Assembly: GCF_048403405.1 (NCBI RefSeq)
Contig: NZ_CP183129.1
DNA length: 64,000 nucleotides
From: Escherichia coli
GTDB taxonomy: Bacteria; Pseudomonadota; Gammaproteobacteria; Enterobacterales; Enterobacteriaceae
Reading direction: 5' to 3' (one strand)
The translations under genes were made by a program, and so were the position numbers. The notes below the pieces were generated by a model that was given only the letters and a program-made list of their open reading frames with translations, was not told the DNA's origin and ran no database searches. This document shows positions 1,885 to 1,977 of the stretch, in pieces (the stretch's first letter is position 1; each line of letters begins with the position of its first letter).

Positions 1885-1977
1885 TTAACTTTTCAATCGC
1901 GGGTCCAGCCATACCAACACAAGGGTGGAGAGCGAACACATCAACAAAATGCCGACGAACCAAAGTAAATACCACAT
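1885..1977 (-). CDS. appX: Small membrane protein AppX (30 aa), cytochrome bd-II accessory peptide
   Basis: Minus-strand ORF translates MWYLLWFVGILLMCSLSTLVLVWLDPRLKS; start (cat at 1975-1977) and stop (tta at 1885-1887) verified by hand. Sits between appB and appA as expected. Below the ORF-track size cutoff. Confidence 0.8.
   Translation of the reverse strand: MWYLLWFVGILLMCSLSTLVLVWLDPRLKS

What the first reader, a model, noticed from the sequence alone, without database searches (positions are those of the whole stretch)
1885..1977. Sub-threshold small ORF: 30-aa membrane peptide AppX between appB and appA
Not in the ORF track because it is below the size cutoff, but the hand translation MWYLLWFVGILLMCSLSTLVLVWLDPRLKS is a single-TM peptide in the position of the cytochrome bd-II small subunit, with a proper start and stop.
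Basis: partly seen in the sequence, partly recalled or inferred. Interest (0 to 1): 0.25.

Follow-up and report, generated by a model that had tools for sequence, protein, structure and literature searches.

The report
Known small subunit AppX of bd-II

Summary
The ORF exists at exactly 1885..1977, but on the minus strand; the finding gave no strand. It starts with ATG, ends with TAA and encodes MWYLLWFVGILLMCSLSTLVLVWLDPRLKS. The peptide is 100% identical over all 30 residues to the AppX chains in the cryo-EM structures of E. coli cytochrome bd-II (PDB 7OSE, 7OY2). It passes the curated cut-offs of Pfam PF08173 and of the NCBIfam CbdX equivalog NF011333, and it carries the published CydX-family motif Y3-W6-G9-D25. 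RefSeq annotates the same coordinates as cbdX (WP_000270305.1). Among 5,426 complete E. coli genomes, 5,398 hold at least 80% of the 175-base locus. The ORF sits 12 bases after the appB stop, behind an AAGGAG ribosome-binding site that overlaps that stop. Across five E. coli lineages the only two changes in the ORF are synonymous. In a relative whose appB DNA is 73% identical, the start, spacer, ribosome-binding site and frame are kept, and differences fall 8/1/17 by codon position. From published structures, AppX is a membrane-buried helix packed against AppC helices 1, 5 and 6 that probably stabilises the bundle holding haems b595 and d. Verdict: already known; interest is very low.

The parts
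1885..1977 (-). appX (cbdX, yccB) coding sequence: 30 codons plus a TAA stop; small single-helix subunit of cytochrome bd-II oxidase
   Evidence: ORF listing. 100% identity to PDB 7OSE_C and 7OY2_X. PF08173 at 45.4 bits against a cut-off of 26.2. NF011333 at 80.8 bits against a cut-off of 57. RefSeq CDS cbdX WP_000270305.1 at the same coordinates.
1986..1991 (-). Shine-Dalgarno sequence AAGGAG for appX. It overlaps the appB stop codon TAA (1990-1992) and lies 8 bases upstream of the ATG.
   Evidence: Read directly from the sequence. The GGAGCAG core and the 12-base spacer are conserved in a relative with 73% appB DNA identity and in five E. coli lineages.
1990..3126 (-). appB, cytochrome bd-II subunit II (378 aa)
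   Evidence: PF02322. NF011602 at 832.8 bits, above its cut-off of 681; the other subunit II model, NF011579, is below its cut-off. RefSeq annotation.
3138..4682 (-). appC, cytochrome bd-II subunit I (514 aa from the RefSeq start; the mechanical ORF extends to a GTG at 4688)
   Evidence: PF01654. NF011609 'bd-II subunit 1' at 1201.5 bits, above its cut-off of 1025; the subunit I model NF011677 reaches 796 bits, below its cut-off of 968. RefSeq annotation.
1844..1875 (-). REP-like perfect 14-bp hairpin in the 79-base spacer between appX and appA
   Evidence: RNA fold of -26.8 kcal/mol, z-score -5.9, and 0 of 200 shuffles fold as well. No T-run follows, so the terminator scan did not call it. 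The stem arms are mostly conserved while the flanks vary among E. coli lineages.
495..1805 (-). appA, periplasmic acid phosphatase/phytase, the last gene of the cluster (436 aa in this strain)
   Evidence: PF00328. NF007552 at 845.5 bits, above its cut-off of 585. RefSeq annotation.

Best explanation
This is appX (synonyms cbdX, yccB), the third gene of the E. coli appC-appB-appX-appA cluster. It is probably translated from the same mRNA as appB, using its own AAGGAG ribosome-binding site that overlaps the appB stop codon. The product is a 30-residue, single-helix protein buried in the membrane. Published cryo-EM structures of a sequence-identical protein show the helix packing against transmembrane helices 1, 5 and 6 of subunit I (AppC). 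The authors conclude that it most likely stabilises the four-helix bundle that holds haems b595 and d, in the same position that CydX occupies in cytochrome bd-I. Shown here: the ORF, its translation signals, its family membership, its identity to the structurally resolved subunit, and purifying selection on the frame. Taken from the literature: physical presence in the purified complex and the helix contacts. Inferred: translational coupling to appB, and the stabilising role as the physiological function.
For: The ORF and its peptide are listed. The peptide is 100% identical over residues 1-30 to the chains named 'cytochrome bd-II ubiquinol oxidase subunit AppX' in 7OSE and 7OY2. It exceeds the Pfam PF08173 cut-off and the NCBIfam NF011333 CbdX equivalog cut-off. 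It carries the family motif YxxWxxGx15E/D (defined in PMC4325964) as Y3, W6, G9 and D25. The flanking genes match the bd-II-specific subunit models above cut-off. RefSeq annotates cbdX at the same coordinates, and 5,398 of 5,426 complete E. coli genomes hold at least 80% of the 175-base locus. The exact peptide is recorded on at least 1,000 contigs under the names CbdX or AppX. In five E. coli lineages the ORF has only 2 variable positions, both synonymous, against 8 variable positions plus an indel in the adjacent spacer. In a relative with 73% appB DNA identity the 12-base spacer, ribosome-binding site and start are the same, 12 codon changes are synonymous and 8 are mostly conservative replacements, and differences by codon position are 8/1/17. 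PMC8585947 reports that AppX was identified by mass spectrometry in purified bd-II, resolved as a single helix contacting AppC helices 1, 5 and 6, and superimposable on CydX. The review PMC8951039 concurs.
Against: Nothing argues against the identity. There are three caveats on function. The purified complexes were made from an overexpression plasmid, so native stoichiometry is not shown by that work. The stabilising role is the authors' inference from contacts, not a measured loss-of-function result for AppX itself. One natural E. coli strain (EL361) carries an IS3 insertion inside the gene, so loss is tolerated at least occasionally.
Confidence: 0.97

Rival explanations
1. It is a chance short ORF in the appB-appA spacer that is not translated or has no function.
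For: ORFs of this length are common by chance: the window has 115 ATG-started ORFs of 30-40 aa. One strain tolerates an IS3 insertion in it.
Against: The peptide is sequence-identical to a subunit resolved in two cryo-EM structures and identified by mass spectrometry. Curated family models are passed. It is the only short ORF in the window that combines a strong ribosome-binding site with high hydrophobicity. Within E. coli all variation in the ORF is synonymous, and a distant relative shows the third-position bias typical of coding sequence.
Confidence: 0.01
2. It is an orthologue of CydX, the bd-I small subunit, rather than the bd-II-specific paralogue.
For: It is homologous to CydX: phmmer against PDB 6RKO chain X gives E = 0.009, and BLASTP gives 40% identity over 25 residues. 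Both belong to the same Pfam family.
Against: The CydX equivalog TIGR02106 scores 18.9 bits, below its cut-off of 31.6, whereas the CbdX equivalog scores 80.8 bits against a cut-off of 57. The adjacent large subunits match the model named 'bd-II subunit 1' above cut-off and a second set of subunit I and II models only below cut-off. The gene cluster is hya-appCBXA, not cydAB.
Confidence: 0.01
3. AppX is a genuine subunit, but its main physiological role is to dimerise bd-II through a leucine-zipper-like face, or to back up CydX in bd-I, rather than simply to brace the haem-binding bundle.
For: In 7OSE, AppX forms the major contact between two heterotrimers through M1, L4, L5, V8, L11, L12, S15, L16 and L19 (PMC8585947). 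All nine residues are present in this window's peptide. Redundancy between CydX and AppX was considered in PMC6005532.
Against: The authors state that whether bd-II is a dimer in the membrane is an open question. The review notes that no other bd oxidase structure reported a dimeric form. The relative in L009 has Q4, A15 and I16 at three of the contact positions, so that face is not strictly conserved. Adding a delta-appX background did not unmask phenotypes of cydX point mutants.
Confidence: 0.12

Closest known systems
E. coli K-12 AppX (CbdX, YccB), small subunit of cytochrome bd-II; PDB 7OSE chain C and 7OY2 chain X; RefSeq WP_000270305.1
   Same: The sequence is identical over 30 of 30 residues. 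The protein accession is the same. The position, 12 bases after appB and before appA, is the same.
   Different: There is no difference at the protein level. At the DNA level this strain has two synonymous differences (Arg27 CGA, Leu28 TTG) from the other lineages compared.
E. coli CydX (YbgT), small subunit of cytochrome bd-I; PDB 6RKO chain X
   Same: It belongs to the same Pfam family, PF08173, and shares the N-terminal motif MWY..W..G..L.CS. The helices are superimposable and occupy the same site on subunit I according to PMC8585947.
   Different: It is a paralogue, not an orthologue: identity is 40% over 25 residues and the window's peptide falls below the cut-off of the CydX equivalog. 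CydX is 37 aa, with a longer C-terminal tail. The positions of four of AppX's dimer-contact residues (L4, L5, L16, L19) hold F, A, F and I in CydX. Cytochrome bd-I also has a fourth subunit (CydH/CydY) that bd-II lacks.
CydS of Geobacillus thermodenitrificans bd oxidase
   Same: It is a single-helix accessory subunit of about 4 kDa that binds subunit I at a largely conserved position (PMC8951039).
   Different: It is slightly tilted, so that it does not contact TM4. No sequence comparison with CydS was made here.

Membership tests
CydX/AppX small-subunit family (Pfam PF08173 YbgT_YccB) | Score above Pfam's gathering threshold | tested here: met
   45.4 bits against a cut-off of 26.2, E = 8.5e-12, residues 1-25 on profile positions 1-25 of 27.
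CydX/AppX small-subunit family (Pfam PF08173 YbgT_YccB) | Motif Y-x2-W-x2-G-x15-E/D (Y3, W6, G9, E/D25), reported to span 97% of homologues (PMC4325964) | tested here: met
   The peptide has Y3, W6, G9 and D25 (sequence; motif definition). The relative in L009 has Y3, W6, G9 and E25.
CydX/AppX small-subunit family (Pfam PF08173 YbgT_YccB) | Protein of fewer than about 50 residues consisting of one hydrophobic transmembrane helix | tested here: met
   30 aa, GRAVY 1.31, best 19-residue Kyte-Doolittle window 2.49 at residues 4-22. The identical sequence is resolved as a single helix in 7OSE.
CydX/AppX small-subunit family (Pfam PF08173 YbgT_YccB) | Encoded immediately downstream of the subunit II gene, on the same strand, with its own ribosome-binding site | tested here: met
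   appB stop at 1990-1992, a 12-base spacer, ATG at 1977, AAGGAG at 1986-1991. The layout is the same in L009.
CydX/AppX small-subunit family (Pfam PF08173 YbgT_YccB) | Physically a subunit of the purified oxidase complex | not testable with these tools
   This is documented for the identical sequence: mass-spectrometry identification and cryo-EM density (PMC8585947; PDB 7OSE and 7OY2).
AppX/CbdX, the bd-II-specific paralogue (NCBIfam NF011333, equivalog) | Score above the curated equivalog cut-off over the full length | tested here: met
   80.8 bits against a cut-off of 57, E = 4.2e-23, residues 1-30 on profile positions 1-30 of 30.
AppX/CbdX, the bd-II-specific paralogue (NCBIfam NF011333, equivalog) | Adjacent large subunits are of the bd-II (AppC/AppB) type | tested here: met
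   AppC: NF011609 'bd-II subunit 1' at 1201.5 bits, above its cut-off of 1025, while NF011677 reaches 796.2 bits, below its cut-off of 968. AppB: NF011602 at 832.8 bits, above its cut-off of 681, while NF011579 reaches 501.1 bits, below its cut-off of 718.
CydX, the bd-I small subunit (NCBIfam TIGR02106, equivalog) | Score above the curated equivalog cut-off | tested here: not met
   18.9 bits against a cut-off of 31.6. It is a paralogue of CydX, not CydX itself.

The most novel reading that the evidence does not exclude
The most novel reading not excluded is that AppX does more than brace the haem bundle. Its leucine-rich face (M1, L4, L5, V8, L11, L12, S15, L16, L19, all present here) might dimerise cytochrome bd-II in the native membrane. 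The REP-like hairpin just downstream might also set the ratio of appCBX to appA expression. Neither idea is specific to this window, and the first has already been raised in the literature as an open question.
Probability: 0.12. Interest if true: 0.25.

Novelty: already known. Interest (0 to 1): 0.04.

Why it matters
It matters only as a check on the scan. A reader working from raw sequence correctly picked out a genuine 30-codon gene that falls below ORF-track size cut-offs, which is the class of gene most often missed in annotation. Biologically, appX is a characterised subunit of a respiratory oxidase that the structure paper describes as most likely crucial for gut colonisation by Enterobacteriaceae (PMC8585947). 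This copy is identical to the E. coli protein used for the solved structures (amplified from strain BW25113), so it adds no new knowledge.

Tried and rejected
- The plus-strand translation of 1885-1977 gives LTFQSRVQPYQHKGGERTHQQNADEPK*IPH, which is meaningless. The ORF is on the minus strand.
- The search of 1.84 billion representative proteins gave only 12 hits at E up to 0.001, because a 30-residue query cannot reach strong E-values in a library of that size. Several of those hits are evidently frameshifted or chimeric gene calls that share only the N-terminal 20-26 residues. Only P0018 and P0022 looked like true orthologues from other taxa, and only P0018 could be placed in genomic context.
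- The promoter and terminator consensus scan found nothing informative around appX. It found no sigma-70-like site in the appX-appA spacer, and it did not call the REP-like hairpin as a terminator because no T-run follows it.
- The Rfam scan of the whole window found only the PyrD leader and tRNA-Ser, and nothing near appX.
- I did not predict a structure, because an experimental structure of the identical sequence exists.

Full report
**1. Observation**

The mechanical ORF list at a 20-aa threshold contains an ORF at 1885..1977 on the minus strand. It has an ATG start and 30 codons, and it translates to MWYLLWFVGILLMCSLSTLVLVWLDPRLKS. The stop codon is TAA. The finding gave no strand, and the plus-strand translation of the same coordinates is meaningless.

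On the minus strand the local sequence reads ...GAG CTG TAC TAA GGAGCAGGAACA ATG TGG TAT.... The appB stop codon (1990-1992) is followed by a 12-base spacer and then the appX ATG. An AAGGAG Shine-Dalgarno sequence (1986-1991) overlaps the appB stop, 8 bases upstream of the start.

**2. Is it more than chance?**

Length alone is not above chance. The window has 115 ATG-started ORFs of 30-40 aa across its six frames. Of these:
- only 2 are at least as hydrophobic as this one (GRAVY 1.31; best 19-residue Kyte-Doolittle window 2.49 at residues 4-22);
- only 4 have a strong Shine-Dalgarno core upstream;
- this is the only one with both properties.

The decisive evidence is homology and conservation, set out below.

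**3. Identity**

- Structures: a sequence search of the PDB returns two chains named 'cytochrome bd-II ubiquinol oxidase subunit AppX' (7OSE chain C and 7OY2 chain X). Both are identical to the query over all 30 residues. CydX of bd-I (6RKO chain X) appears as a weaker relative, with E = 0.009.
- Pfam: PF08173 (YbgT_YccB) scores 45.4 bits against a gathering threshold of 26.2.
- NCBIfam: the equivalog NF011333 'cytochrome bd-II oxidase subunit CbdX' scores 80.8 bits against a cut-off of 57 over its full length. The CydX equivalog TIGR02106 scores 18.9 bits, below its cut-off of 31.6. The peptide is therefore the bd-II paralogue, not CydX.
- Neighbours: the flanking genes match the subunit I and II models NF011609 ('cytochrome bd-II oxidase subunit 1') and NF011602 above their cut-offs, and a second set of subunit I and II models (NF011677, NF011579) only below cut-off. 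The gene on the other side is the AppA phytase/acid phosphatase.
- Motif: the family motif Y-x2-W-x2-G-x15-E/D, published for 299 CydX homologues (PMC4325964), is met exactly as Y3, W6, G9 and D25.

**4. Annotation and population frequency**

The window is E. coli. Its first 5 kb are 100% identical to several complete genomes. The whole 64 kb is 99.986% identical to strain 4621, NZ_CP103479.1. RefSeq annotates a CDS cbdX, 'cytochrome bd-II oxidase subunit CbdX', WP_000270305.1, at exactly 1885..1977 on the minus strand.

A 175-base query spanning the ORF finds a match in 5,418 of 5,426 complete E. coli genomes. In 5,398 of them the match covers at least 80% of the query, and every full-length match listed is annotated cbdX. 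The exact peptide is in the 15-billion-protein collection on at least 1,000 contigs (the tool's counting limit) under the names CbdX or AppX.

**5. Conservation of the frame**

*Within E. coli.* I aligned the window with four lineages whose 175-base locus is 95-97% identical to it.
- The 93-base ORF has only two variable positions, both synonymous (Arg27 CGA/CGT and Leu28 TTG/CTG).
- All four lineages carry the same protein accession.
- The 79-base spacer just downstream has eight variable positions and an indel.

*Beyond E. coli.* The representative-library search returned a 43-aa relative, P0018, at 73% identity. It is encoded on metagenome contigs in the order subunit I (514 aa), subunit II (378 aa), small PF08173 ORF, with no appA downstream. 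Compared with the window:
- AppC is 91% and AppB 80% identical at the protein level, and appB DNA is 73% identical.
- The start codon lies the same 12 bases after the subunit II stop.
- The GGAGCAG ribosome-binding core is retained.
- Of the 30 aligned codons, 10 are identical, 12 differ synonymously and 8 differ by mostly conservative replacements (L/I, S/T, T/S, S/A, D/E).
- Differences by codon position are 8/1/17, a coding signature.

Both refutation conditions, no homology and no frame conservation, therefore fail.

**6. How it works**

This part comes from the literature on the identical protein and was not tested here.

Grauel et al. (PMC8585947) purified bd-II expressed from a plasmid carrying appCBX. 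They report the following:
- AppX was identified by mass spectrometry as a band of about 4 kDa.
- It was resolved at 3.0 Å as a single 30-residue helix completely buried in the membrane.
- It overlaps completely with the position of CydX in bd-I.
- In that preparation AppX also forms the main contact of a bd-II dimer, through M1, L4, L5, V8, L11, L12, S15, L16 and L19. The authors leave open whether the dimer exists in the membrane.

The review PMC8951039 summarises CydX, CydS and AppX as mainly structural subunits required for stable assembly and activity. PMC6005532 treats AppX as a paralogue of CydX. It found that deleting appX did not unmask phenotypes of cydX point mutants.

*Inference from the sequence.* The ribosome-binding site overlaps the appB stop and the spacer is 12 bases. 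This suggests that appX is translated from the appCB mRNA, possibly coupled to termination at appB.

**7. Rivals**

- A chance, untranslated ORF is excluded by sections 3-5.
- A CydX orthologue is excluded by the equivalog scores and the gene context.
- A role mainly in dimerisation remains possible but weak. All nine contact residues are present here, but the relative in L009 has Q4, A15 and I16 at three of them. The review notes that no other bd oxidase structure reported a dimeric form.

**8. Comparison with the known, and novelty**

The gene is E. coli AppX itself. It has the same sequence, the same accession and the same locus as the characterised protein, so it is already known. Interest is very low. 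The result mainly confirms that the first-stage reader can pick out true sub-threshold genes.

**9. Other things seen**

- A perfect 14-bp REP-like hairpin lies between appX and appA at 1844-1875.
- The etk-etp-gfc cluster that separates appA from cspH in K-12-type genomes is absent here. As a result cspH and appA converge and overlap by 13 bases, and AppA has an altered C-terminus. This configuration occurs in 1,674 of 5,426 genomes.
- Strain EL361 has an IS3 insertion inside cbdX.
- Relative to strain 4621, the window is one C shorter in two poly-C tracts, which breaks the reading frames of ycbF and elfC. It also lacks the 5-bp duplication that frameshifts ompF in 4621.

Noticed in passing
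window 1844-1875 (minus strand), in the 79-base appX-appA spacer: There is a perfect 14-bp hairpin, CUGAUGCGGCGC-AUUA-GCGUCGCAUCAG extended by two pairs, that resembles a REP element. It folds at -26.8 kcal/mol with a z-score of -5.9 against shuffles. No T-run follows, so it is not a canonical terminator. It may act as a 3' stabiliser or partial barrier between appCBX and appA. Among E. coli lineages most variation lies in its flanks and at a few stem positions.
   Followed up: partly
window 495-507 (cspH 295..507 on the plus strand; appA 495..1805 on the minus strand): cspH and appA converge and overlap by 13 bases. AppA ends ...[10 protein letters not shown] (436 aa), instead of ...IPACSL (432 aa) as in strain EL361, which keeps etk next to appA. 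A deletion junction that removes the etk-etp-gfc (group 4 capsule) cluster seems to lie in the last two codons of appA. The direct cspH-appA junction is present in 1,674 of 5,426 complete E. coli genomes; in the others, including K-12, the two halves match at separate places.
   Followed up: partly
L006 (E. coli EL361, NZ_CP193497.1) 142-1591: This strain is a natural knock-out of appX. An IS3-family element is inserted after codon 17, with the target duplicated so that ...CTCTCCA / IS3 / CCACCCTT... flank it. The small gene is no longer annotated there, while appB and appA remain intact.
   Followed up: partly
window 38272 and 40868: Compared with the near-identical strain 4621, the window has one C fewer in two poly-C tracts. 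This splits the fimbrial chaperone gene ycbF into ORFs 37776..38285 and 38219..38512. It also truncates the fimbrial usher elfC to ORF 40858..43215 (785 aa, against 866 aa annotated in 4621). The cause could be homopolymer sequencing errors or real frameshifts or phase variation in the elf/ycb fimbrial operon.
   Followed up: partly
window 55449-56522 (plus strand): ompF is an intact 357-codon ORF in the window. In strain 4621 the same gene is annotated as a frameshifted pseudogene because of a 5-bp CGTAA duplication at the position corresponding to window 55931.
   Followed up: partly
L009 4261-4392 (metagenome contig ERZ27280411 k141_537106): The AppX relative on this contig is 43 aa, with a 13-residue polar C-terminal extension (AKKDEAAGNHKIA). 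It has Q4, A15 and I16 at positions that the 7OSE paper lists as dimer contacts and describes as conserved leucines among AppX homologues. Its operon has no appA downstream.
   Followed up: partly
window 37660-37733 (minus strand) and 10710-10794 (plus strand): These are the only Rfam matches at gathering threshold in the 64-kb window: the PyrD leader upstream of pyrD (97.9 bits) and tRNA-Ser between hyaA and yccA. Both are expected features.
   Followed up: no
proteins P0019-P0021 and P0023-P0026 from the representative library: Several database 'proteins' share the first 20-26 residues of AppX and then diverge into unrelated tails. For example, P0026 continues in the alternative frame of the same locus (compare the 46-aa ORF at 1835..1975 on the minus strand). 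They look like frameshifted or chimeric assemblies rather than real variants.
   Followed up: no
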